Shown here: one piece after another, positions 2,939 through 61,439 of the stretch
Position numbering within the stretch: the stretch's first letter is position 1
How the letters are laid out: each line of letters starts with the position of its first letter
Assembly: GCF_001677475.2 (NCBI RefSeq)
Contig: NZ_CP015229.1
Direction: 5' to 3' (one strand)
From: Escherichia coli
Lineage (GTDB): Bacteria > Pseudomonadota > Gammaproteobacteria > Enterobacterales > Enterobacteriaceae
Length of the DNA: 64,000 bases
Made by a program: the position numbers and the translations under genes
The notes under the pieces: generated by a model
Seen by the model: the letters and a program-made list of their open reading frames with translations, nothing else
Databases searched by the model: none
Told to the model about the DNA's origin: nothing

Positions 2939-4066
2939 TTAACCCGCTAAATGCTCGCGCTTCAGATACTCTTCGCTTTGCATCTCTTGCAGACGTGACA
3001 GGCAACGCTGGAACTCAAATTTCAGCCGCTCGCCCTGATAAATGTCATATAGCGGCACTTCTGCACTCACCACTAATTTGACATGGCGCTCGTAAAACTC
3101 ATCCACCAGCGCAATAAAGCGCCGCGCTTCGCTCTCCATCAACCGCGTCATAACTGGTACATCAAACAACATGACCGTATGAAAGAGGCGTGAGAGCGCA
3201 ATATAGTCATGCTGACTGCGGGCGTCGACGCACAGCGTAGTAAAAGAGACCGCCAGCGTCTGGTTCTCGACGCCCATTGTCGCCAATGGCCGATGGTTGA
3301 TTTCTAATGTCGGTGAATTTTCTCGTTTCGCCCCCGCCAGCGCCAACCATAGTTTATCCATTTGCGCCCGGGTTTCATCGTTGAGGGGCGAAAGCCACAG
3401 ATGCGCCTGAGTGAGTGTACGCAGTCGATAATCAACACCAGCGTCCACGTTCATTACATCACAATGCTGTTTAATGGCATCGATTGCAGGCAAAAAACGC
3501 GCACGTTGTAGGCCATTTCGATAAAGTTCGTCCGGCGGAATATTTGACGTCGCTACCAGGGTAATACCGCGGGCGAACAGGGCTTTCATCAGACCGCCAA
3601 GTAGCATGGCGTCGGTAATATCAGAAACAAAAAATTCGTCAAAACAGAGCACGTCAGTTTCGGCTTTAAAGCGATCGGCAATAATTTCCAGCGGATCGCT
3701 TTGGCCTTGTAATTCGGTCAGCTCTTCGTGCACCCGCAGCATAAAACGGTGAAAGTGCAGACGCTGTTTCCGCTCTCCCGGCAGGCTTTGATAGAAAAGG
3801 TCCATCAGCCAGGTTTTCCCGCGTCCTACACCGCCCCACATATATAAGCCACGCACTGGCGTATGCTTTGTGTCTTCCCGTTTACCCCACAGCTTACCGA
3901 CCCGCGCCATTAGCCCACTCGTCCTGGGGGCTGGTGGCGTGCTATTGATGAGTTCCTGATAAATAATTTCCAAGCGGCTGACGGCCTCTTTTTGAACGTC
4001 GTCGGGTTGATGGCTGCCTTCATTGAGCGCCTTCAGGTATTGCGATGTTGGGGTAACGCTTTGCAT
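2939..4066 (-). CDS. zapE: AFG1-family ATPase, cell division factor ZapE (YhcM)
   Basis: 375-aa ORF with P-loop GVGRGKT, recognised as YhcM/ZapE. Confidence 0.93.
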   Translation of the reverse strand: MQSVTPTSQYLKALNEGSHQPDDVQKEAVSRLEIIYQELINSTPPAPRTSGLMARVGKLWGKREDTKHTPVRGLYMWGGVGRGKTWLMDLFYQSLPGERKQRLHFHRFMLRVHEELTELQGQSDPLEIIADRFKAETDVLCFDEFFVSDITDAMLLGGLMKALFARGITLVATSNIPPDELYRNGLQRARFLPAIDAIKQHCDVMNVDAGVDYRLRTLTQAHLWLSPLNDETRAQMDKLWLALAGAKRENSPTLEINHRPLATMGVENQTLAVSFTTLCVDARSQHDYIALSRLFHTVMLFDVPVMTRLMESEARRFIALVDEFYERHVKLVVSAEVPLYDIYQGERLKFEFQRCLSRLQEMQSEEYLKREHLAG

Positions 4067-4259
4067 GATCTTATTGTTATTCCTTGAATAATCGGTGCGC
4101 CGTTGTTCACGGTTGACGAAAAAAAGGCCGTTCTACACTACGCGATATGCAGTCGGGATTCCACTTCTGTGGAATTAACGGTTATAGTGGCATAATCAGC
4201 CGCAGGCATGGAGCCTGAAGCCAACACCCTACGGAAACAAAAGACAACGGGAGATGTTC

Positions 4260-7398: not shown

Positions 7399-8412
<1,014 letters not shown>

Positions 8413-8710
8413 TTACAATGACCACATCTCAAGAATGTGTAGTCACGCAAGTTTAGCGTTTATGCATTTAATTGCCGTAATCAGGAACCTAACTTACGTA
8501 ATTAACAGTCGCTTATGCATTAGCGCAACATTCCAACAGGTGGTGACAATATACCCTACCGTTCAGCCAAAACAACATCAATTTGATAACAATTAATTTA
8601 CTTTTAAGCAGAATTTGCATGCCGTGACGCAGGCATGTTTCTCAATAACGAAATTTGATAAAATCCCGCTCTTTCATAACATTATTTCAGCCTTCTTCAG
8701 GGCTGACTGT

Positions 8711-8748
8711 TTGCATAAAAATTCATCTGTATGCACAATAATGTTGTA
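8711..8748 (+). promoter_or_regulatory. Putative tandem ARG boxes (ArgR operator) overlapping the argR promoter
   Basis: tTGCATaaaaATTCAtc followed by a weaker ATGCAcaataATGTT repeat about 25 bp upstream of argR; matches the ARG-box half-site pattern TGAAT/ATTCA. Confidence 0.4.
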
Positions 8749-8768
8749 TCAACCACCATATCGGGTGA

Positions 8769-9242
<474 letters not shown>

Positions 9243-9606
9243 TCTCTGCCCCGTCGCTTCTGGCGGCGGGGAAAATGTTGCTTATCCCTCTCAACCCCCT
9301 GCTTTCCCCTGCGATTAATTTAACGAATAGTGCGTTTTACTGCGACATGTCATTCACACAATGAATACATACGGTAAAAAAAGCACATTATGCAAAATTC
9401 ATTATCTAATTGAAAATACTAGAATTAAAAATAAATAACCGTGTTTTTAATTCTTTTTTGTTATTAAAATTCACATTTTTAATACTTAGTATCAACTGAA
9501 ACAGTTAGCGTGGTATTAATTAGTTCAATAATTAGTGTATACTTGATTTTGTGATAAGGGTCACGAAACAAAGACCCAGCAAAAAGATTATGTTGAGGTA
9601 AAAATC

Positions 9607-9870
9607 ATGAAAATCAAAACCACTGTTGCTGCATTAAGCGTACTTTCTGTTCTCTCTTTCAGTGCATTCGCTGCCGACTCCATTGATGCTGCACAAGCAC
9701 AAAATCGTGAAGCAATCGGGACCGTATCCGTAAGTGGTGTGGCGTCTTCGCCAATGGATATGCGTGAAATGCTGAACAAAAAAGCAGAAGAGAAAGGCGC
9801 AACGGCCTACCAGATTACGGAAGCTCGTAGCGGTGACACCTGGCACGCTACGGCTGAACTGTACAAATAA
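9607..9870 (+). CDS. yhcN: Small periplasmic stress protein YhcN (DUF1471/YdgH-BhsA family)
   Basis: 87-aa ORF with signal peptide, preceded by a 360-bp AT-rich region. Confidence 0.85.
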   Translation: MKIKTTVAALSVLSVLSFSAFAADSIDAAQAQNREAIGTVSVSGVASSPMDMREMLNKKAEEKGATAYQITEARSGDTWHATAELYK

Positions 9871-9895
9871 ACCCTCATCGTCTTGTCCGACGATA

Positions 9896-9922
9896 TTGCC
9901 CCCGGTTCGGGGGCTTTTTTTT
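9896..9922 (+). terminator. Intrinsic terminator after yhcN
   Basis: gcccccggttcgggggc followed by tttttttt. Confidence 0.7.
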
Positions 9923-9925
9923 GCG

Positions 9926-10198
9926 CTAATGACGAACATTAAAACGCAAATGCCCTTCCAGCTCTTCCTCTGCCTCATCAAACAGCAATATTAACGCACC
10001 AAAACGGCGACGCGTTTTCTCTCCCAGATGAACAAATTCAATCTCAAGTGGTAGCGGCAGGACATCGTTCATTAACACATCCCATAGTGAGTCGAGATCG
10101 CGTACCTTATCTTTCGCCAGACCAAATGTTTGGCTAAAGTCACGATAAAAATCCTCCTGACTCTCAATCTCATCAAAATCAAAGGTATAAATATTCAT
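9926..10198 (-). CDS. yhcO: Barstar-like protein YhcO
   Basis: 90-aa acidic ORF recognised as YhcO. Confidence 0.85.
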
Positions 10199-10289
10199 CT
10201 GTTGCCACCGTCACGTTTCGCGGCGAGTTCTGCCGTGCATCGCTAAGTATAGCCATGAAAAAACCGACGCTTTTGGCGTCGGTTTTGAC

Positions 10290-12257
10290 TTAACTATCGG
10301 TCAACGCATGTTGATACTTATGGAGCATCCCCGCCAGCCGATGTACCGGTTCCGTCACCTGCGGTGGCGCTTGCCAGATGCGTAGCTTTTCCTGGTAGAT
10401 TTCCAGTTCTTCCAGCAACTGGCCAAAGTACCGACGACGTTTATCATCGCTACGGGCAGATATCACATGGTCTGCTGTGCGGCGCATTTGTCGGTGAAAC
10501 GCCGATAAATCCTCGTTAACCGGGATCGGCGCATCACGCAGGCGCTGGTGCGCGATAATCATCGTCAGCGCCAGGCGAAATTTCGGCAAATCCCCTGGGA
10601 ACTTATTCATCAGCAAAAACAGCTGCTGATAAAGTGCCGGGAGGTGGTTCTCTTTACGACGTGCCACATTGGTAGTCATCGCGGAAACAGCGGCAGAAAC
10701 AAACTGATTAAGCAGTACACGTCCAGTCCTGTCGCGCGATTTATCCCGCACCAGCAAAATAACGGTGAACGCGAGCACACAGCCGACGATTTGCCCTAAT
10801 GCGCTGTCGAGAAACTGACTGAAATGGAAAGTCATCGGGTTATCCAGCACGATAATATTTATGGTGCTGGCCAGTGCCCCCATCGAGCCCAGTCGCCGTT
10901 TCTGTACTTCTATACCGAGGAAGAATCCCAGCACTGCCAGGCTAATGCACAGCAGCAACATGCTCTGTTGGGTATTAGGGATAATCACCAAAAAGTAGAG
11001 CAGCCCTAACGGCAGCGCGGCCAGCGTCCCGTAGATAAAGTCGATCGCCACCATGCGTGGATTCGGCAAACGCATTGCCAGTGACGTCACTACCGCAATC
11101 ATCACCATTGCACCACTGCCGGAAGTCCAGCCCGTCCACAGCCAGAAAAGCGTGCCCAGAATGCAGGAAAGTGTGGTTCGCCAGAAGTTAACCATCGCAT
11201 GATGACGTTCGGCTGACTCTACTTTGACTTCCGGTTCGCCTTGCAGGATCTCTTCTTCGGTGGCGTTGATTTTTGTGTTACTGATAACGCCGCGCTTGAG
11301 AAGCTGATAACGCGTTGCCGCCGCAACCCAGCTATAAATGGTGACAGGCGTTTCCCGTTCCCCGGTCCAGGCGATCACTCTCCGCAGGCGTTTGAGCTGC
11401 TTGTGGACGTCCTGCGCGGTTTCTACCGGCGTGTCAAAAAATTCGCGGAAAGTATCAGTGATCAATTCCGGGCGCGTATTCTGAATAAGATAAGTTTCGC
11501 AGGATTGGGTAATCAGCGTCAGCGATAGCGTATTGATCGCTTTTAAACGTCGATTGGCCCGCGCCCAGCGGGAAGATTCCATATTCAGGTTGCTGCGCAT
11601 GCCTTGTAGCGCCGTGGTGCGTCGCACCAGGTCGCCCCAGGCTTTATCGACAACTTCACCATCGCCATGCTTGATACAGAGTTGCATTAATTGATATTGC
11701 GCGACGAGCAAACTTTCCAGCTCTCGATCCACTTCTTGTTTGATCGATCGCGGAGAAAAAAGCAAATCAGCCATAATCGCACACACAATACCGATAACGA
11801 TCTCGCTACAACGTTCGACAGCAAACTGCGGCGTAAGCAATGGTTCCGGCTGAATGGTGATCACAATGATCAGCGCGGTATAACCGGCCAGCCCCCACGC
11901 ATACGAGTTTTCTATTCGTACCAGCGAGGATATCCAGGTGCAAAAACCGGCCCAGATACAGCACACCAGAATCATCAATAATGGTGCGCGGATCATCGCA
12001 ATAATGATCACCAGTCCGGCAATACAGCCAATAAATGTGCCGATGATGCGCAAAAAGCCACGATAGCGTATCGCGCCAGAGTACGGTTCACCTCCCGCAG
12101 CAAAGGCCGGACCGGCGGCAACAATCGCCGCTGTCAGTACCGCCCAGCGTGGCGTTTCCAGCTGGAAGTGAAAGCCAACAAACAGCGCCAGTACAATGGC
12201 GGTCGCCAGTTTTACCGCAAAGCGAATATGTTGGTTAGCAATGGAGAAAATACCCAT
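10290..12257 (-). CDS. aaeB: p-Hydroxybenzoic acid efflux pump subunit AaeB
   Basis: 655-aa polytopic membrane protein; aaeXAB gene order. Confidence 0.93.
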
Positions 12258-13406: not shown

Positions 13407-13588
13407 GTTGACCTTGGTTGTATAGAGAGAGCAGGCGTTATTATTTTCAGCATCTGTCGCCGCAGAGAAGGGCATGGAAAGCCGGGCGAGAGCAACATTG
13501 CTGTAGATTGATATTTAATATATTAGCGTAACTGTTATGCTGTTATCTATATTATGTGATCTAAATCACTTTTAAGTCAGAGTGAATA

Positions 13589-14518
13589 ATGGAACGACTA
13601 AAACGCATGTCGGTGTTTGCCAAAGTAGTTGAATTTGGCTCTTTTACCGCCGCCGCCAGACAGTTACAGATGAGCGTTTCGTCCATCAGTCAGACGGTGT
13701 CAAAACTGGAAGATGAGTTGCAGGTAAAGCTGTTAAACCGTAGCACACGCAGCATTGGCCTGACCGAAGCCGGTAGAATTTACTACCAGGGCTGCCGTCG
13801 GATGCTTCATGAAGTGCAGGATGTTCATGAGCAACTGTATGCCTTCAATAACACCCCCATCGGGACGCTACGCATTGGCTGTTCTTCAACTATGGCACAA
13901 AATGTTCTCGCCGGGCTGACAGCCAAAATGCTGAAAGAATACCCAGGTTTGAGCGTCAATCTGGTTACCGGAATTCCTGCCCCCGACCTGATTGCCGACG
14001 GTCTGGATGTGGTGATCCGCGTCGGCGCGTTGCAGGATTCCAGCCTGTTTTCCCGCCGTCTTGGCGCGATGCCAATGGTGGTCTGCGCCGCGAAAAGCTA
14101 TCTCACACAATACGGCATACCGGAAAAACCCGCCGATTTAAGTAGTCATTCATGGCTTGAATACAGCGTACGACCCGACAATGAATTTGAACTGATCGCA
14201 CCGGAAGGGATCTCGACTCGCCTGATCCCGCAAGGGAGATTTGTGACTAATGATCCGATGACGCTGGTGCGCTGGCTAACGGCGGGCGCCGGGATCGCCT
14301 ACGTGCCGCTGATGTGGGTGATCAACGAGATCAATCGCGGGGAGCTGGAGATCCTGCTGCCACGTTACCAGTCAGATCCACGCCCGGTTTATGCGTTATA
14401 TACCGAAAAAGATAAGCTGCCGCTGAAGGTACAAGTCGTGATCAACTCGCTAACGGATTATTTTGTTGAGGTCGGTAAATTGTTTCAGGAGATGCACGGG
14501 CGCGGGAAAGAGAAGTAA
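13589..14518 (+). CDS. aaeR: LysR-family transcriptional activator AaeR
   Basis: 309-aa ORF with N-terminal LysR HTH, divergent from aaeXAB. Confidence 0.9.
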   Translation: MERLKRMSVFAKVVEFGSFTAAARQLQMSVSSISQTVSKLEDELQVKLLNRSTRSIGLTEAGRIYYQGCRRMLHEVQDVHEQLYAFNNTPIGTLRIGCSSTMAQNVLAGLTAKMLKEYPGLSVNLVTGIPAPDLIADGLDVVIRVGALQDSSLFSRRLGAMPMVVCAAKSYLTQYGIPEKPADLSSHSWLEYSVRPDNEFELIAPEGISTRLIPQGRFVTNDPMTLVRWLTAGAGIAYVPLMWVINEINRGELEILLPRYQSDPRPVYALYTEKDKLPLKVQVVINSLTDYFVEVGKLFQEMHGRGKEK

Positions 14519-36649: not shown

Positions 36650-37828
<1,179 letters not shown>

Positions 37829-38659
37829 ATGAAGAGTGTTAACGTGCCGAGAAAATCGTCTAACCTACTGAAACGCAGATTAAAAATTGCAGAAATTGTT
37901 GCCGCCCAGGGTGAAATCAAAGTTGATGACTTATCTGCGCAACTTGGTGTCTCTGGCGTGACGATCCGCGGCGATCTCAGTTATCTGGAGCAACAGGGAT
38001 ATTTAAAGCGATCATTTGGCGGTGCTATTGCGACACCACTCTCCTCTGAACCAGAAGCGATACAACCGATCGCGCCATTGTCTCTGGCACAACAAATGGA
38101 AATAGCACGACATTGCGCACGGTTAATTCGGGATCGTGACACGCTATTTCTTGGACATGGGACAATCTGCCGTAAGATCATTCCCTTGCTCAGCGAAGTG
38201 AAAAAACTGCGTCTGATCACCAACGATCCCGAACATGCGCTGCTGGCAAATCAGTTTATTGATGGCGAAATAATACTGGCTGGCAGTGAAATGCTGCGCC
38301 CCGACACCGCACTGGCCGGAAAACCGCTTGAACAGGCACTTCAGCATTTCACCATTACACATAGCATTCTGGAAATCAGCCATCTGGATGCTGATGGTAC
38401 TTTAAATATCAACGTTCCCAGACTTGCCGCTGCCTGGCAGCTCTGTTTCGATCATGCCCAAAATAAGACAGTTATCGTTGCCGCCGACCCTGCGCCATCA
38501 ACGGCTGCTATCGGGCATTTGCATCAGGCAGAAAATGTGATCGTCAGCCGCAGCATTAACGAACAATATCAGCAACAATTGCAGTCGGCTGATTTCGTTA
38601 TCCTTTATACCAGTAATGAGTGCTTTACCTGGTCCAATCGCGAAAGGCTTCAGGAATGA
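37829..38659 (+). CDS. Island gene: DeoR-family transcriptional regulator
   Basis: 276-aa ORF; N-terminal HTH (LSAQLGVSGVTIRGDLSYLEQQGYLKR) and C-terminal sugar-phosphate sensor domain; exact start uncertain. Confidence 0.8.
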   Translation: MKSVNVPRKSSNLLKRRLKIAEIVAAQGEIKVDDLSAQLGVSGVTIRGDLSYLEQQGYLKRSFGGAIATPLSSEPEAIQPIAPLSLAQQMEIARHCARLIRDRDTLFLGHGTICRKIIPLLSEVKKLRLITNDPEHALLANQFIDGEIILAGSEMLRPDTALAGKPLEQALQHFTITHSILEISHLDADGTLNINVPRLAAAWQLCFDHAQNKTVIVAADPAPSTAAIGHLHQAENVIVSRSINEQYQQQLQSADFVILYTSNECFTWSNRERLQE

Positions 38660-42295: not shown

Positions 42296-42555
42296 CCTTC
42301 GCATCGCCGTAGGGTGACGCAGGGCGAAGTGCGAGCAAGGTCACAAAAGGCACGTTAATTTGCCGATTATTTACGCAAATTTGCGTGCCAAAATTTTCAT
42401 TCATAAAGAAAAATTGAGAACTTACTCAAATTTCTTTGAGTGTAAATTTTAGTCACTATTTTCTAATATGATGATTTTTATGAGTAATTATCGCGCCACG
42501 CTCATTTTAAATGCAATTCTTTGATCCATCTCAGAGGATTGGTCAAAGTTTGGCC

Positions 42556-42590
42556 TTTCATCTCGTGCAAAAAATGCGTAATATACGCCG
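42556..42590 (+). promoter_or_regulatory. Putative dusB-fis promoter (-35 TTCATC, -10 TAATAT, GC-rich discriminator ACGCCGCC)
   Basis: Seen directly about 35 bp upstream of dusB within an AT-rich region; a GC-rich discriminator is typical of stringently controlled promoters. Confidence 0.5.
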
Positions 42591-42623
42591 CCTTGCAGTC
42601 ACAGTATGGTCATTTCTTAACTC

Positions 42624-45146: not shown

Positions 45147-45809
45147 TTATATGACACTTAATTCATTCGTTTGATGAATTAATTTCGTTATGTTTTCATC
45201 TGGCATGAACATTCTTAATACGTTATCGACCAGTGCGGGTGCTTGTTTATAAAGATCATAACCCGCCATATTCATTAACCAGTTTTGAACAATTCCGCTG
45301 AAGGCACCATCAATAATAATCATCACAACATCTAAATCGAGATTATTTGCTATACAACCTTGTTGCTGACATGCCTGCAATACTTCGTGGAGAGTCTGCG
45401 GATTAAAACCCATCTTTTCGCGTATCACTCCCTCTGCCAGCATCTCATCATTAAATTCACATTTGTGATATAAGATTTTCAGCAACGACTGCTGGCGGGG
45501 AATTTTGGCAATATATTGCAAGCCAACAATCAATTTTTCACGCAATTGCTGAAACGGGTCATGCTCTAACCCAGCAGTCAAGTGATCCTGGATTAACTCC
45601 CGCAATGAAGGCTGTTGCAACCACATCTCATTAAACAGTTGGGTCTTGTTCTCGAAGTGCCAGTAGATAGCGCCACGCGTAACGTTAGCGGCGTCGGCAA
45701 TGTCGTTGAGCGTCGTCTTGCTTACGCCATGCTGCGCAAACTGGGCGATGGCAGTTTCAATCAGTTCTTGCCGGGTCTTCAGGGCTTCAGCTTTGGTTCT
45801 TTTTGCCAT
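45147..45809 (-). CDS. acrS: TetR-family repressor AcrS (EnvR)
   Basis: 220-aa ORF with N-terminal TetR HTH, divergent from acrEF. Confidence 0.9.
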   Translation of the reverse strand: MAKRTKAEALKTRQELIETAIAQFAQHGVSKTTLNDIADAANVTRGAIYWHFENKTQLFNEMWLQQPSLRELIQDHLTAGLEHDPFQQLREKLIVGLQYIAKIPRQQSLLKILYHKCEFNDEMLAEGVIREKMGFNPQTLHEVLQACQQQGCIANNLDLDVVMIIIDGAFSGIVQNWLMNMAGYDLYKQAPALVDNVLRMFMPDENITKLIHQTNELSVI

Positions 45810-46206
45810 GATTAATTATTCAGGAAATAAATATATTCGACACAGGATGAGAAAATAGCGAAGGTTAATCTATCATCTAATGTGTATTTATACGAGAGGG
45901 TAACATTGAGTTGCTATAAATCGTCAAATAAATAATATATATTATTTACCTAAGATACATTCACTACATCAATATATATTTCAATTTACGAGGTTTTAAT
46001 TCTGCTTCTTTCAGCCCGCGTCAAAACAAAACATTAGAATATTAATCTTTTTTTGCGTTTATGTGCCTTAGACGCCAGTATTCATAACTATTTCTTACAT
46101 CGACGAATGATAATTTGTAGGATAGCGAACTGTATTTTTCTTTCTGCGAGTTAACGCGTTGCCTTTTCGGGTAAATAACGCGCTTTTGGTTTTTTGAGGA
46201 ATAGTA

Positions 46207-50300: not shown

Positions 50301-50480
50301 ATGACCTCTCTCGCCTTTATTCTCGGCGTATTACCGCTAGCTATCAGTAACGGTGCCGGCAGTGGCGCGCAGAACGCAGTGGGTATCGGGGTAATGGGCG
50401 GGATGGTCTCTGCAACGTTGCTGGCAATCTTCTTCGTGCCGGTGTTCTTTGTGGTGATCCGCCGTTGCTTTAAAGGATAA
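47376..50480 (+). CDS. acrF: RND multidrug efflux transporter AcrF
   Basis: 1034-aa ORF ([23 protein letters not shown]...). Confidence 0.95.
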
Positions 50481-50491
50481 ATCAGAAACAT

Positions 50492-50520
50492 AAAGGCACT
50501 TTCGGGTGCCTTTATTATTT
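50492..50520 (+). terminator. Intrinsic terminator after acrF
   Basis: aaaggcac-tttcggg-tgccttt followed by attattt. Confidence 0.65.
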
Positions 50521-50732
50521 CCAGTGAAACCCATAAAAATTAATAAGATATTCCTCTACTCACTCTTTAAAAACTTTCTATAGTTCCCGCTCCCTTCACT
50601 ATTTTTACAATTCACATAATTTGTCATTATTCATTCCGCAAGATTTATAACCTCCAGTGATAAAATGGCATTCAGCTCGTTAATAAGAGAGTTAACTTAT
50701 TAAGCGTTAGCGTTTATTACTGAGGTAACACC

Positions 50733-50954
50733 ATGAAAAGATTAATTCCTGTGGCATTGCTCACCGCATTGCTGGCGGGCTGTGCTCACGATTCGCCCTG
50801 CGTTCCGGTTTATGACGATCAGGGTCGACTGGTTCACACTAATACCTGTATGAAAGGCACGACTCAGGATAACTGGGAAACGGCTGGGGCTATTGCTGGC
50901 GGGGCAGCAGCTGTTGCTGGCCTGACGATGGGGATCATCGCTCTGTCGAAATAA
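50733..50954 (+). CDS. yhdV: Small lipoprotein YhdV
   Basis: 73-aa ORF with lipobox LLAGC and Gly/Ala-rich C-terminal TM-like segment. Confidence 0.85.
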   Translation: MKRLIPVALLTALLAGCAHDSPCVPVYDDQGRLVHTNTCMKGTTQDNWETAGAIAGGAAAVAGLTMGIIALSK

Positions 50955-61303: not shown

Positions 61304-61439
61304 ATATTACGCTTTCCTCTTTCAGAGTCAACCCTGAATTTCAGGATTTTTTCTCTTTGTTGTTACGACCATCTTGTGAAGTGTTTCACGTTGTCGTCTC
61401 AACGGAGGCGCATTATAGGGATCCCAATTTTTTGCACAA
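61304..61439 (-). promoter_or_regulatory. rrnD tandem promoters: P2 (-35 TTGACT, -10 TAATAT; about 61304-61331) and P1 (-35 TTGTGC, -10 TATAAT; about 61412-61439), with an AT-rich UP-like tract upstream
   Basis: Hexamers read directly on the minus strand; typical rrn P1 discriminator GCGCC after the TATAAT. Confidence 0.55.

What the first reader, a model, noticed from the sequence alone, without database searches (positions are those of the whole stretch)
9243..9606. 364-bp extremely AT-rich region upstream of yhcN
Long A/T tracts and phased repeats (e.g. ttaaaaataaataaccgtgtttttaattcttttttgttattaaaattcacatttttaata) are typical of curved, nucleoid-protein-bound promoter DNA. This fits yhcN being a stress-induced gene and could hide an unannotated small transcript.
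Basis: inference. Interest (0 to 1): 0.2.

Follow-up and report, generated by a model that had tools for sequence, protein, structure and literature searches.

The report
H-NS-bound regulatory spacer upstream of yhcN
This is the E. coli argR–yhcN intergenic spacer, the AT-rich control region of the stress gene yhcN, which earlier K-12 studies already catalogued as H-NS-bound, so it is ordinary and shows no sign of a hidden RNA gene.

Summary
Coordinates 9243-9606 are exactly the 364-bp spacer between argR (8772-9242) and yhcN (9607-9870) of E. coli.

**Observation:** partly right.
- The first 68 bp are 60% GC (argR 3' hairpin plus a C-rich tail).
- The AT-rich part is 9311-9606 (27% GC, minimum 16%), the lowest-GC stretch of the 64-kb window.
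- A/T tracts are over-represented, but helical (10-11 bp) phasing is not significant.

**Interpretation:** partly supported. Published K-12 data list this spacer as one of 78 H-NS-bound "promoter islands", as a site that binds RpoD holoenzyme and H-NS in vitro, and as a 1.2 nM CRP site.

**Comparison of 16 Enterobacterales shows:**
- a conserved core promoter: TTAATT-16-TATACT, with the transcription start inferred at ~9550;
- a CRP box at a fixed position over that start;
- a far-upstream marbox, invariant in its GCAC core, 165-167 bp from the -10 (155 bp in Escherichia). It matches a SoxS ChIP-seq peak reported in Salmonella.

**Small transcript:** no support. There is no Rfam hit, no terminator, no covarying structure and no conserved ORF.

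**Verdict:** a known kind of stress-gene regulatory region silenced by a nucleoid protein. Interest is low. The fixed-length AT-rich linker is the only mildly new point.

The parts
8772..9242 (+). argR coding sequence (left flank)
   Evidence: ORF; RefSeq annotation of K-12 and strain A16.
9249..9271 (+). argR 3' GC-rich hairpin (10-bp stem). It is followed by AAAAUGUU rather than a U-tract.
   Evidence: RNA fold of -19.6 kcal/mol. The terminator scan did not call it. A hairpin followed by A residues recurs in other genera.
9272..9310 (+). C-rich, G-poor tail after the hairpin. This part of the spacer is 60% GC and variable in length.
   Evidence: Composition. Poorly conserved and rich in indels in the alignment. 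A Rho-loading role is my inference only.
9311..9500 (.). AT-rich upstream regulatory tract (25% GC). It is the core of the published H-NS-bound 'promoter island'.
   Evidence: Lowest-GC stretch of the window. K-12 literature. AT-richness is kept at 25-40% GC in 14 genera while the sequence is only about 40-60% conserved.
9317..9326 (-). TCGTTAAATT, one mismatch from the H-NS high-affinity motif tCGATAAATT. A candidate nucleation site.
   Evidence: motif taken from Lang 2007. Weak on its own: 9 such matches in the window against 5.1 expected.
9319..9333 (-). Marbox A, GCACTATTCGTTAAA. It is the only perfect match to GCACnnWnnRYYAAA in the 64 kb and lies in backward orientation relative to yhcN.
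   Evidence: Present in 12 of 16 taxa, 64 bp (54 bp in two taxa) from marbox B. Consensus.
9352..9366 (.). Palindrome ATTCA-CACAA-TGAAT, midway between the two marboxes. No factor assigned.
   Evidence: CAGTGAAT is conserved across genera.
9383..9397 (+). Marbox B, GCACATTATGCAAAA (1 mismatch), in forward orientation.
   Evidence: The GCAC core and the AA of the AAA end are invariant in all 16 taxa, including Yersinia and Acerihabitans. It lies 165-167 bp (155 bp in Escherichia) upstream of TATACT. Salmonella SoxS ChIP-seq found a peak with a marbox at yhcN.
9410..9439 (+). Published predicted 'constitutive' sigma-70 promoter TTGAAA-18-AATAAC. An alternative -10-like hexamer, TAGAAT, lies at 9420-9425.
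   Evidence: Shimada 2014 table. Hexamer list. The -10 region falls in a poorly conserved segment with an 11-bp indel, so its function is uncertain.
9421..9454 (.). Perfect 11-bp AT inverted repeat, AGAATTAAAAA / TTTTTAATTCT, with a 12-nt loop.
   Evidence: -9.5 kcal/mol as RNA, z=-3.8. Interrupted in K-12 and polymorphic within E. coli without compensating changes. Not conserved in other genera.
9503..9521 (+). Conserved block aGTTAGCgTGGTATTAATT, containing the -35-like hexamer TTAATT (9516-9521).
   Evidence: 78% identity to 11 other genera in this bin. Invariant columns. The same block appears in the Salmonella promoter figure.
9538..9543 (+). -10 hexamer TATACT of the proximal yhcN promoter.
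   Evidence: Invariant in 16 taxa. No polymorphism at 9525-9556 among 8 E. coli strains. It lies 7 nt upstream of the position matching the Yersinia transcription start.
9550..9551 (+). Inferred yhcN transcription start, giving a 56-57-nt leader.
   Evidence: Inferred, not measured here. It rests on the position relative to TATACT and on the Yersinia start at -56 from the ATG. Two E. coli transcription-start supplements had no entry.
9550..9565 (.). CRP box TGTGA-taaggg-TCACG, centred about +8 relative to the inferred start.
   Evidence: One of two exact matches to TGTGA-N6-TCACR in the window. Footprint-seq gives Kd 1.2 nM for the K-12 allele. CRP genomic SELEX lists yhcN. The box starts 12 bp after the first base of TATACT in all 16 taxa.
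9595..9598 (+). Shine-Dalgarno GAGG, 8 nt before the ATG.
   Evidence: Invariant in the alignments.
9607..9870 (+). yhcN (DUF1471 stress-induced protein), followed by an intrinsic terminator at 9898-9914.

Best explanation
The spacer is the transcriptional control region of yhcN and has three parts.

1. 9243-9310 is the GC-rich 3' end of the argR transcript (hairpin plus C-rich tail).
2. 9311-9500 is an AT-rich upstream tract that H-NS coats (shown for K-12 in vivo and in vitro). It carries one or two sites for the MarA/SoxS/Rob activators.
3. 9501-9606 is a conserved core promoter (TTAATT-16-TATACT, start near 9550). A high-affinity CRP box lies over the first 16 transcribed bases, followed by a 56-nt leader with a Shine-Dalgarno site.

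Proposed mechanism (inferred):
- Without stress, an H-NS filament spreads across the AT-rich tract and over the weak-(-35) promoter and keeps it silent.
- cAMP-CRP bound at +1 to +16 adds repression by occluding RNA polymerase.
- Under acid or weak-acid, redox or envelope stress, MarA/SoxS/Rob at the upstream marbox(es), and possibly SlyA, remodel or displace H-NS and release the promoter.

AT-rich DNA also offers many -10-like hexamers. That is why RNA polymerase binds it in vitro and why it was catalogued as a 'promoter island'.
For: Identity and anatomy.

Composition.

H-NS and RNA polymerase binding (K-12 literature).

CRP:
- Footprint-seq gives Kd 1.2 nM, and CRP genomic SELEX lists yhcN.
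- The position is fixed in 16 taxa.
- The Yersinia paper cites transcriptome data in which yhcN rises when crp is deleted.

Core promoter:
- Phylogenetic footprint of 69-89% identity at 9503-9562, against 37-61% upstream.
- Invariant TATACT.
- Yersinia transcription start at -56.
- The same block appears in the Salmonella promoter figure.

Marboxes:
- Matches, conserved in sequence and spacing.
- SoxS ChIP-seq peak at Salmonella yhcN, classed as neither class I nor class II.
- Benzoate induction of yhcN and co-induction with soxS.

SlyA: it binds the Y. pestis yhcN promoter and changes its expression.

Precedent: SlyA relieves H-NS silencing of fimB from -167 to -194.

-10-like hexamers are 5 times the window mean but no more than the composition predicts.
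Against: - No transcription start, H-NS occupancy or CRP effect has been measured for E. coli yhcN in anything I could read. The start is transferred from Yersinia, and two E. coli supplements had no entry.
- The Yersinia paper also reports lower yhcN expression on glucose than on glycerol. That does not fit simple CRP repression.
- Motif matches are not enriched by themselves: marbox 21 against 17.8 expected, H-NS motif 9 against 5.1.
- Panyukov's table codes this island 'O', meaning Oshima plus Grainger. It is therefore not credited to the Kahramanoglou MG1655 data set.
- Marboxes 160-230 bp from the start fit no known activation class. They may instead serve a separate distal promoter.
- The window differs from K-12 at 14 spacer positions, including one in the CRP spacer at 9557.
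Confidence: 0.75

Rival explanations
1. The AT-rich tract hides an independent small transcript, either an sRNA or a small-protein mRNA, made from one of its promoter-like sites.
For: - RpoD holoenzyme binds the spacer in vitro.
- There are seven -10-like hexamers on the two strands and one promoter-like site on the minus strand at 9416->9387.
- Promoter islands as a class are reported to yield 9-14-nt abortive oligonucleotides.
- An AT hairpin followed by a T-run lies at 9421-9462.
Against: - No Rfam match in the spacer at E<=10.
- No terminator-like site inside it.
- RNAalifold finds only the invariant CRP palindrome, with zero compensatory pairs.
- The AT hairpin is broken in K-12 and absent in other genera.
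- The 25-aa ORF at 9361-9438 is cut to 3 codons in K-12 by the 9372 polymorphism, and the small ORFs lie in poorly aligned, indel-rich sequence.
- RefSeq annotates nothing here in 5,425 genomes.
- Promoter islands as a class are reported to have very low productive transcription.
Confidence: 0.06
2. The key property is intrinsic DNA curvature from helically phased A-tracts, and this curvature is what recruits nucleoid proteins.
For: - A/T tracts cover 96 of 296 nt, more than in shuffles.
- A rough wedge model predicts local bends of about 35-44 degrees per 60 bp near 9285, 9455 and 9584. The 200-bp end-to-end ratio of 0.80 is in the top 3.5% of the window.
Against: - No excess AA/TT periodicity at 10-11.5 bp (p=0.14 against shuffles; 32% of window tiles are as strong or stronger).
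- The strongest predicted bend ranks 12th in the window, and the AT-richest part (9325-9425) is predicted nearly straight.
- Lang 2007 argue that sequence motifs with T-A steps, not coherent curvature, underlie high-affinity H-NS binding.
Confidence: 0.12
3. There are two yhcN promoters. Besides the proximal one, a distal promoter lies just downstream of marbox B (-10 TAGAAT 9420-9425 or AATAAC 9434-9439). MarA/SoxS/Rob activate it directly in a class-II-like arrangement, giving a leader of about 160-175 nt.
For: - Marbox B is in forward orientation and invariant in its GCAC core.
- TAGAAT starts 20 bp after the 20-bp marbox. From memory, class II promoters have 18-19 bp.
- A -10-like hexamer recurs 19-22 bp downstream of the marbox in several genera (read).
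- Shimada 2014 predict the RpoD promoter here.
Against: - The candidate -10 hexamers are not conserved, and the segment holds the 11-bp Escherichia deletion.
- Salmonella authors put yhcN under 'other promoters' and drew the proximal block.
- The spacing is off by 1-2 bp from the remembered class II rule.
- No transcription-start data support it.
Confidence: 0.25
4. The tract is a functionless remnant: neutral AT drift, or left-over horizontally acquired DNA. That is the usual setting of promoter islands.
For: - 75 of the 78 promoter islands are linked to putatively foreign genes, and yhcN is flagged by one of five predictors.
- The spacer is 4-9 times more polymorphic than the flanking genes within E. 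coli.
- An ISApl1 element sits in it in one strain.
Against: - The argR-yhcN synteny, the spacer length (364-380 bp) and the low GC are kept across Enterobacteriaceae, and the core also in Yersinia and Acerihabitans.
- The distance from marbox to -10 is fixed at 165-167 bp (155 bp in Escherichia) while the flanks vary by 50 bp.
- Several invariant sequence islets exist.
Confidence: 0.04

Closest known systems
E. coli 'promoter islands' (Shavkunov/Panyukov/Ozoline), H-NS-coated AT-rich regions dense in promoter-like sites
   Same: This exact spacer is entry 3383263_333, argR(+)/yhcN(+), in their Table 1. With my remembered offset of about 1,976 bp between genome versions, that maps to roughly 9309-9641, which is the AT-rich core I delimited independently. 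It is AT-rich, binds RNA polymerase and is H-NS-bound.
   Different: - It is not linked to recently acquired DNA. The arrangement is conserved across Enterobacterales.
- It contains a clearly conserved, presumably productive core promoter with specific regulator sites.
- The density of -10-like hexamers is explained by composition alone.
fimB upstream region: SlyA operators at -167 to -194 that counter H-NS silencing (McVicker et al. 2011, PMC3173223)
   Same: - Regulator sites lie far upstream in an extended H-NS-bound AT-rich region.
- fimB and yhcN fall in the same acid- and benzoate-responsive class.
- SlyA also binds the Yersinia yhcN promoter.
   Different: Here the conserved far-upstream elements look like marboxes (MarA/SoxS/Rob) rather than SlyA palindromes. 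Anti-silencing has not been demonstrated for yhcN.
mar/sox/rob regulon promoters (class I and class II marbox promoters)
   Same: - Two matches to AYnGCACnnWnnRYYAAAY are conserved.
- SoxS ChIP-seq gives a peak at Salmonella yhcN.
- Induction by benzoate and co-induction with soxS.
   Different: The positions, about -160 to -230 from the inferred start, fit neither class. The Salmonella authors file yhcN under 'other promoters'.
CRP-repressed promoters with an operator overlapping the transcription start (for example crp autoregulation, cited)
   Same: A near-consensus CRP palindrome overlaps +1 to +16. Binding is nanomolar in vitro. Expression rises in a Yersinia crp mutant.
   Different: Repression in E. 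coli is untested. The start is inferred. Yersinia carbon-source data are not simply consistent with repression.

Membership tests
Promoter island / H-NS-silenced AT-rich region | A region of at least 300 bp with very low GC | tested here: met
   296 bp at 27% GC, the lowest in the 64-kb window.
Promoter island / H-NS-silenced AT-rich region | Abnormally high density of promoter-like start points (the original definition uses PlatProm) | tested here: inconclusive
   PlatProm is not available. -10-like hexamers are 5 times the window mean but below the composition expectation (7 against 10.5 +/- 3.6). The strict -35/-10 scan found 1 site against 1.6 expected. The K-12 allele is in the published list.
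Promoter island / H-NS-silenced AT-rich region | H-NS occupancy in vivo | not testable with these tools
   Literature for K-12 and W3110 only: Oshima and Grainger ChIP-chip as coded, and genomic SELEX.
Promoter island / H-NS-silenced AT-rich region | Association with horizontally acquired genes | tested here: not met
   The argR-yhcN arrangement and the AT-rich spacer are conserved in 14 Enterobacteriaceae genomes (about ten named genera), plus Yersinia and Acerihabitans.
Intrinsically curved DNA (phased A-tracts) | A-tracts repeated in phase with the helix (10-11 bp) | tested here: not met
   Power at 10-11.5 bp gives p=0.14 against shuffles, and 32% of window tiles are as strong or stronger.
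Intrinsically curved DNA (phased A-tracts) | High predicted or measured curvature | tested here: inconclusive
   An approximate wedge model gives a moderate result: the region's peak ranks 12th in the window, and the 200-bp end-to-end ratio is in the top 3.5%. No gel assay was possible.
CRP-regulated promoter | TGTGA-N6-TCACA palindrome | tested here: met
   TGTGATAAGGGTCACG at 9550-9565, 9 of 10 core bases. Conserved in 16 taxa.
CRP-regulated promoter | CRP binding and a regulatory effect | not testable with these tools
   Binding: Kd 1.2 nM for the K-12 allele and genomic SELEX. Effect: known only in Yersinia, as cited.
mar/sox/rob regulon promoter | Marbox matching AYnGCACnnWnnRYYAAAY | tested here: met
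   9319-9333 (minus strand, 0 mismatches) and 9383-9397 (plus strand, 1 mismatch). Conserved across taxa. Motif counts in the window are not above chance.
mar/sox/rob regulon promoter | Marbox at a class I or class II position and orientation relative to the -35/-10 | tested here: not met
   The marbox GCAC lies 155-167 bp upstream of TATACT. Salmonella yhcN is classed under 'other promoters'. Only a hypothetical distal promoter would fit.
Small RNA gene | Match to a known RNA family, or its own promoter plus terminator with a conserved structure | tested here: not met
   No Rfam match in the spacer, no terminator, and no covariation.
Small-protein gene | An ORF conserved across strains and genera | tested here: not met
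   ORFs of 25-30 aa only. One is truncated in K-12 by the 9372 polymorphism. All lie in poorly aligned, indel-rich sequence.

The most novel reading that the evidence does not exclude
The AT-rich tract is a spacer of constrained length, not just a landing pad for H-NS. A universally conserved far-upstream marbox is held 165-167 bp from the -10, or exactly one helical turn less (155 bp) in Escherichia. A second, inverted marbox lies 64 bp (or 54 bp) further upstream. This would mean that MarA/SoxS/Rob act at long range and on a fixed face of the helix, for example by remodelling a bridged or looped H-NS complex. That geometry is not described for this regulon.
Probability: 0.15. Interest if true: 0.4.

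Novelty: already known. Interest (0 to 1): 0.12.

Why it matters
For the scan, it matters little. The feature is the regulatory region of an annotated gene, and its H-NS, RNA polymerase and CRP binding are already in the K-12 literature.

The comparison adds a usable map of the yhcN control region: core promoter, a CRP box over the start, and conserved marboxes. It also gives a testable idea, that the length of an AT-rich H-NS-bound linker is constrained to whole helical turns. That would bear on how stress activators counter H-NS silencing from a distance.

Tried and rejected
- **Rfam scan** of 8400-10400 at E<=10: nothing in the spacer.
- **Promoter and terminator consensus scan:** 1 promoter-like site, on the minus strand, no more than in shuffles. 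The only terminators lie after yhcN.
- **Helical phasing of A-tracts:** not significant.
- **H-NS motif:** the degenerate form gave 22 matches against 17 expected, and the published 10-mer 9 against 5.1. This is not evidence by itself.
- **Marbox motif count:** 21 against 17.8 expected. Only conservation and the Salmonella ChIP-seq make it meaningful.
- **RNAalifold** on 16 taxa from marbox B to the ATG: it recovers only the CRP palindrome, with no covariation.
- **E. coli transcription-start tables:** no entry for yhcN or nearby coordinates in the supplements of Kim 2012 or Ettwiller 2016. The files may be truncated. Thomason 2015 is not held, and Conway 2014 was blocked by the paper cap.
- **Other regulator sites** (Fur, GadE box, OxyR, IHF, SlyA palindrome, sigma-54, sigma-S), inspected by eye against remembered consensus sequences: partial resemblances only, so none is claimed.
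- **Vogt 2023 (EHEC):** confirms induction but holds no yhcN promoter dissection.

Full report
**What the region is.** The window around the finding carries mdh (minus strand), argR (8772-9242, plus), yhcN (9607-9870, plus), yhcO (minus) and aaeB (minus). This is the order annotated in E. coli K-12 MG1655 and in strain A16, the closest genome at 99.5% identity. The finding's coordinates are therefore exactly the 364-bp argR-yhcN intergenic spacer. It occurs once in 5,425 of 5,426 complete E. coli genomes, and no feature is annotated under it.

**Check of the observation.**
- The spacer as a whole is 33.5% GC but is not uniform.
- 9243-9310 is 60% GC. It holds a 10-bp GC hairpin at 9249-9271 (-19.6 kcal/mol) followed by a C-rich tail.
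- 9311-9606 is 27% GC, falling to 16-18% around 9385-9500.
- That core contains the lowest-GC 100-, 200- and 296-bp windows of the whole 64 kb. The AT-richness is real and unusual for this window.
- The quoted 60-mer is at 9425.
- A/T tracts are over-represented: 96 of 296 nt against 68 +/- 12 in shuffles.
- The claim of phasing fails. AA/TT periodicity at 10-11.5 bp is not above shuffles (p=0.14), and a third of equal-sized tiles of the window reach the same level.
- A rough wedge-model calculation, with parameters from memory, gives moderate rather than exceptional predicted curvature.
- An unexpected 17-bp periodicity (z~6) remains unexplained.

**What is already published for this spacer (K-12).**
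- Panyukov and Ozoline list argR(+)/yhcN(+) as one of 78 'promoter islands'. These are AT-rich regions with many predicted start points. They bind RNA polymerase but give little productive RNA, and they are covered by H-NS. This island is coded as H-NS-bound in the Oshima and Grainger data sets.
- Shimada et al. found RpoD-holoenzyme binding in the spacer by genomic SELEX. They predicted TTGAAA-18-AATAAC, which is window 9410-9439, and flagged H-NS binding.
- CRP genomic SELEX lists yhcN.
- A 2026 Footprint-seq preprint gives a CRP site centred at 3385490 with Kd 1.2 nM. This is the palindrome at window 9550-9565.
- yhcN is induced by acid shift and benzoate and, together with soxS and bhsA, by gut-microbiota metabolites.

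**Comparative anatomy.** I anchored on ArgR and fetched 79 loci.
- yhcN follows argR in Escherichia, Citrobacter, Enterobacter, Pseudocitrobacter, Kluyvera, Superficieibacter and Mangrovibacter, and also in Yersinia aldovae and Acerihabitans. It does not in Pectobacterium, Vibrio and more distant taxa.
- The spacer is 364-380 bp in Enterobacteriaceae and is AT-rich everywhere, at 34-41% GC against 46-54% for the locus. The extreme value of 25% GC in the distal tract is specific to Escherichia and Citrobacter werkmanii.
- Conservation is uneven. The argR-proximal two thirds are 37-61% identical to the window. 9503-9562 is 69-89% identical.
- That conserved block reads aATTAGC-n-TGGTATTAATT-N16-TATACT-N6-TGTGA-N6-TCACG. 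It also appears in the Salmonella yhcN promoter figure.
- Among eight E. coli strains the spacer has 4-9 times more segregating sites per bp than the flanking genes, but none at 9525-9556.

**Core promoter and CRP.**
- TATACT (9538-9543) is invariant in all 16 taxa. TTAATT lies 16 bp upstream of it.
- In Yersinia the yhcN transcription start is placed 56 nt before the start codon. In Y. aldovae that position falls 6-7 nt after the same TATACT.
- Transferred to the window, this gives a start at 9550-9551 and a 56-nt leader with GAGG at 9595-9598. This start is an inference. I found no E. coli entry in two transcription-start supplements.
- The CRP box begins 12 bp after the first base of TATACT in every taxon, so it covers +1 to +16. 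That is a repressing position.
- In agreement, the Yersinia paper cites transcriptome data in which yhcN rises when crp is deleted. It also notes lower expression on glucose than on glycerol, which does not fit simple repression.

**Upstream tract.**
- Two matches to the marbox consensus lie in inverted orientation. One is at 9319-9333 on the minus strand and is the only perfect match in the window. The other is at 9383-9397 on the plus strand. They flank the palindrome ATTCA-N5-TGAAT.
- The motif count alone is not above chance. However, the GCAC core of the plus-strand box is invariant in all 16 taxa, and the minus-strand box is present in 12.
- In Salmonella, SoxS ChIP-seq gives a peak with a marbox at yhcN, classed as neither class I nor class II.
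- The distance from this marbox to TATACT is 165-167 bp in 13 taxa from three families and 155 bp in Escherichia. The segments on either side vary over 132-181 bp and 60-114 bp, and the intervening sequence is poorly conserved.
- One mismatch from the H-NS motif tCGATAAATT lies at 9317-9326. This is weak evidence by itself.
- SlyA binds the Y. pestis yhcN promoter.
- SlyA relieves H-NS silencing of E. coli fimB from operators at -167 to -194. This is a precedent for regulators that act far upstream within H-NS-bound DNA.

**Most likely mechanism.**
- Shown (K-12 literature): H-NS, RNA polymerase and CRP bind this spacer, and yhcN is stress-induced.
- Shown here: the layout and its conservation.
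- Inferred: H-NS spreading over the AT-rich tract silences a promoter with a weak -35. CRP at +8 adds occlusion. MarA/SoxS/Rob, and perhaps SlyA, at the upstream sites relieve silencing under weak-acid, redox or envelope stress.
- A second, distal promoter next to the plus-strand marbox is possible (about 0.25) but is not conserved in sequence.

**The small-transcript idea.** It has no support.
- Nothing from Rfam.
- No terminator in the spacer.
- No covarying structure.
- The AT hairpin at 9421-9454 is specific to this lineage and is broken in K-12.
- The short ORFs are not conserved.

**Verdict.** This is an already described, ordinary regulatory region. The reading of 'curved, phased' is not supported, and 'hidden transcript' is unsupported. 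The fixed-length AT-rich linker is a modest new observation that could be tested.

Noticed in passing
L082 (E. coli Z247, NZ_CP021207.1) 3229-4203; equivalent to about window 9462: An ISApl1 (IS30-family) element is inserted in the AT-rich part of the argR-yhcN spacer. It separates the marboxes from the core promoter in this blood isolate.
   Followed up: partly
L079 (Escherichia albertii NBRC 107761), about 3287-3340; equivalent to window 9598-9609: A 9-bp deletion removes the yhcN ATG. The reading frame stays open from an ATG inside the CRP box, so the start codon or leader has changed, or the gene is decaying.
   Followed up: partly
window 9311-9606: AA/TT dinucleotide periodicity of about 17.25 bp (z about 6 against shuffles, top 0.75% of window tiles), with no 10.5-bp signal. 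No explanation.
   Followed up: partly
window 9249-9310: The argR 3' hairpin is followed by AAAAUGUU rather than a U-tract, then by a C-rich, G-poor stretch. The terminator scan does not call it. It may be a Rho-dependent or otherwise non-canonical end of argR.
   Followed up: no
L005-L010, L012 (Enterobacter, Pseudocitrobacter, Superficieibacter, Kluyvera and others), about 3800-3990: A second DUF1471 paralogue sits between yhcN and yhcO in many genera. It is absent in Escherichia and Citrobacter.
   Followed up: no
window 13555-13570 and 61375-61390: Two other strong CRP-like palindromes: TGTGATCTAAATCACT, inside another low-GC patch at 13487-13612, and TGTGAAGTGTTTCACG.
   Followed up: no
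window 37495-37875, 42325-42591, 45753-46155, 50464-50747: Other low-GC islands (minimum 25-30% GC over 200 bp). They are the next most AT-rich stretches of the window.
   Followed up: no
window 10252-10324 (minus strand): A sub-threshold Rfam match to the enterobacterial sRNA STnc240 (26 bits against a gathering score of 55). It lies at the yhcO/aaeB junction and overlaps the start of the aaeB ORF.
   Followed up: no
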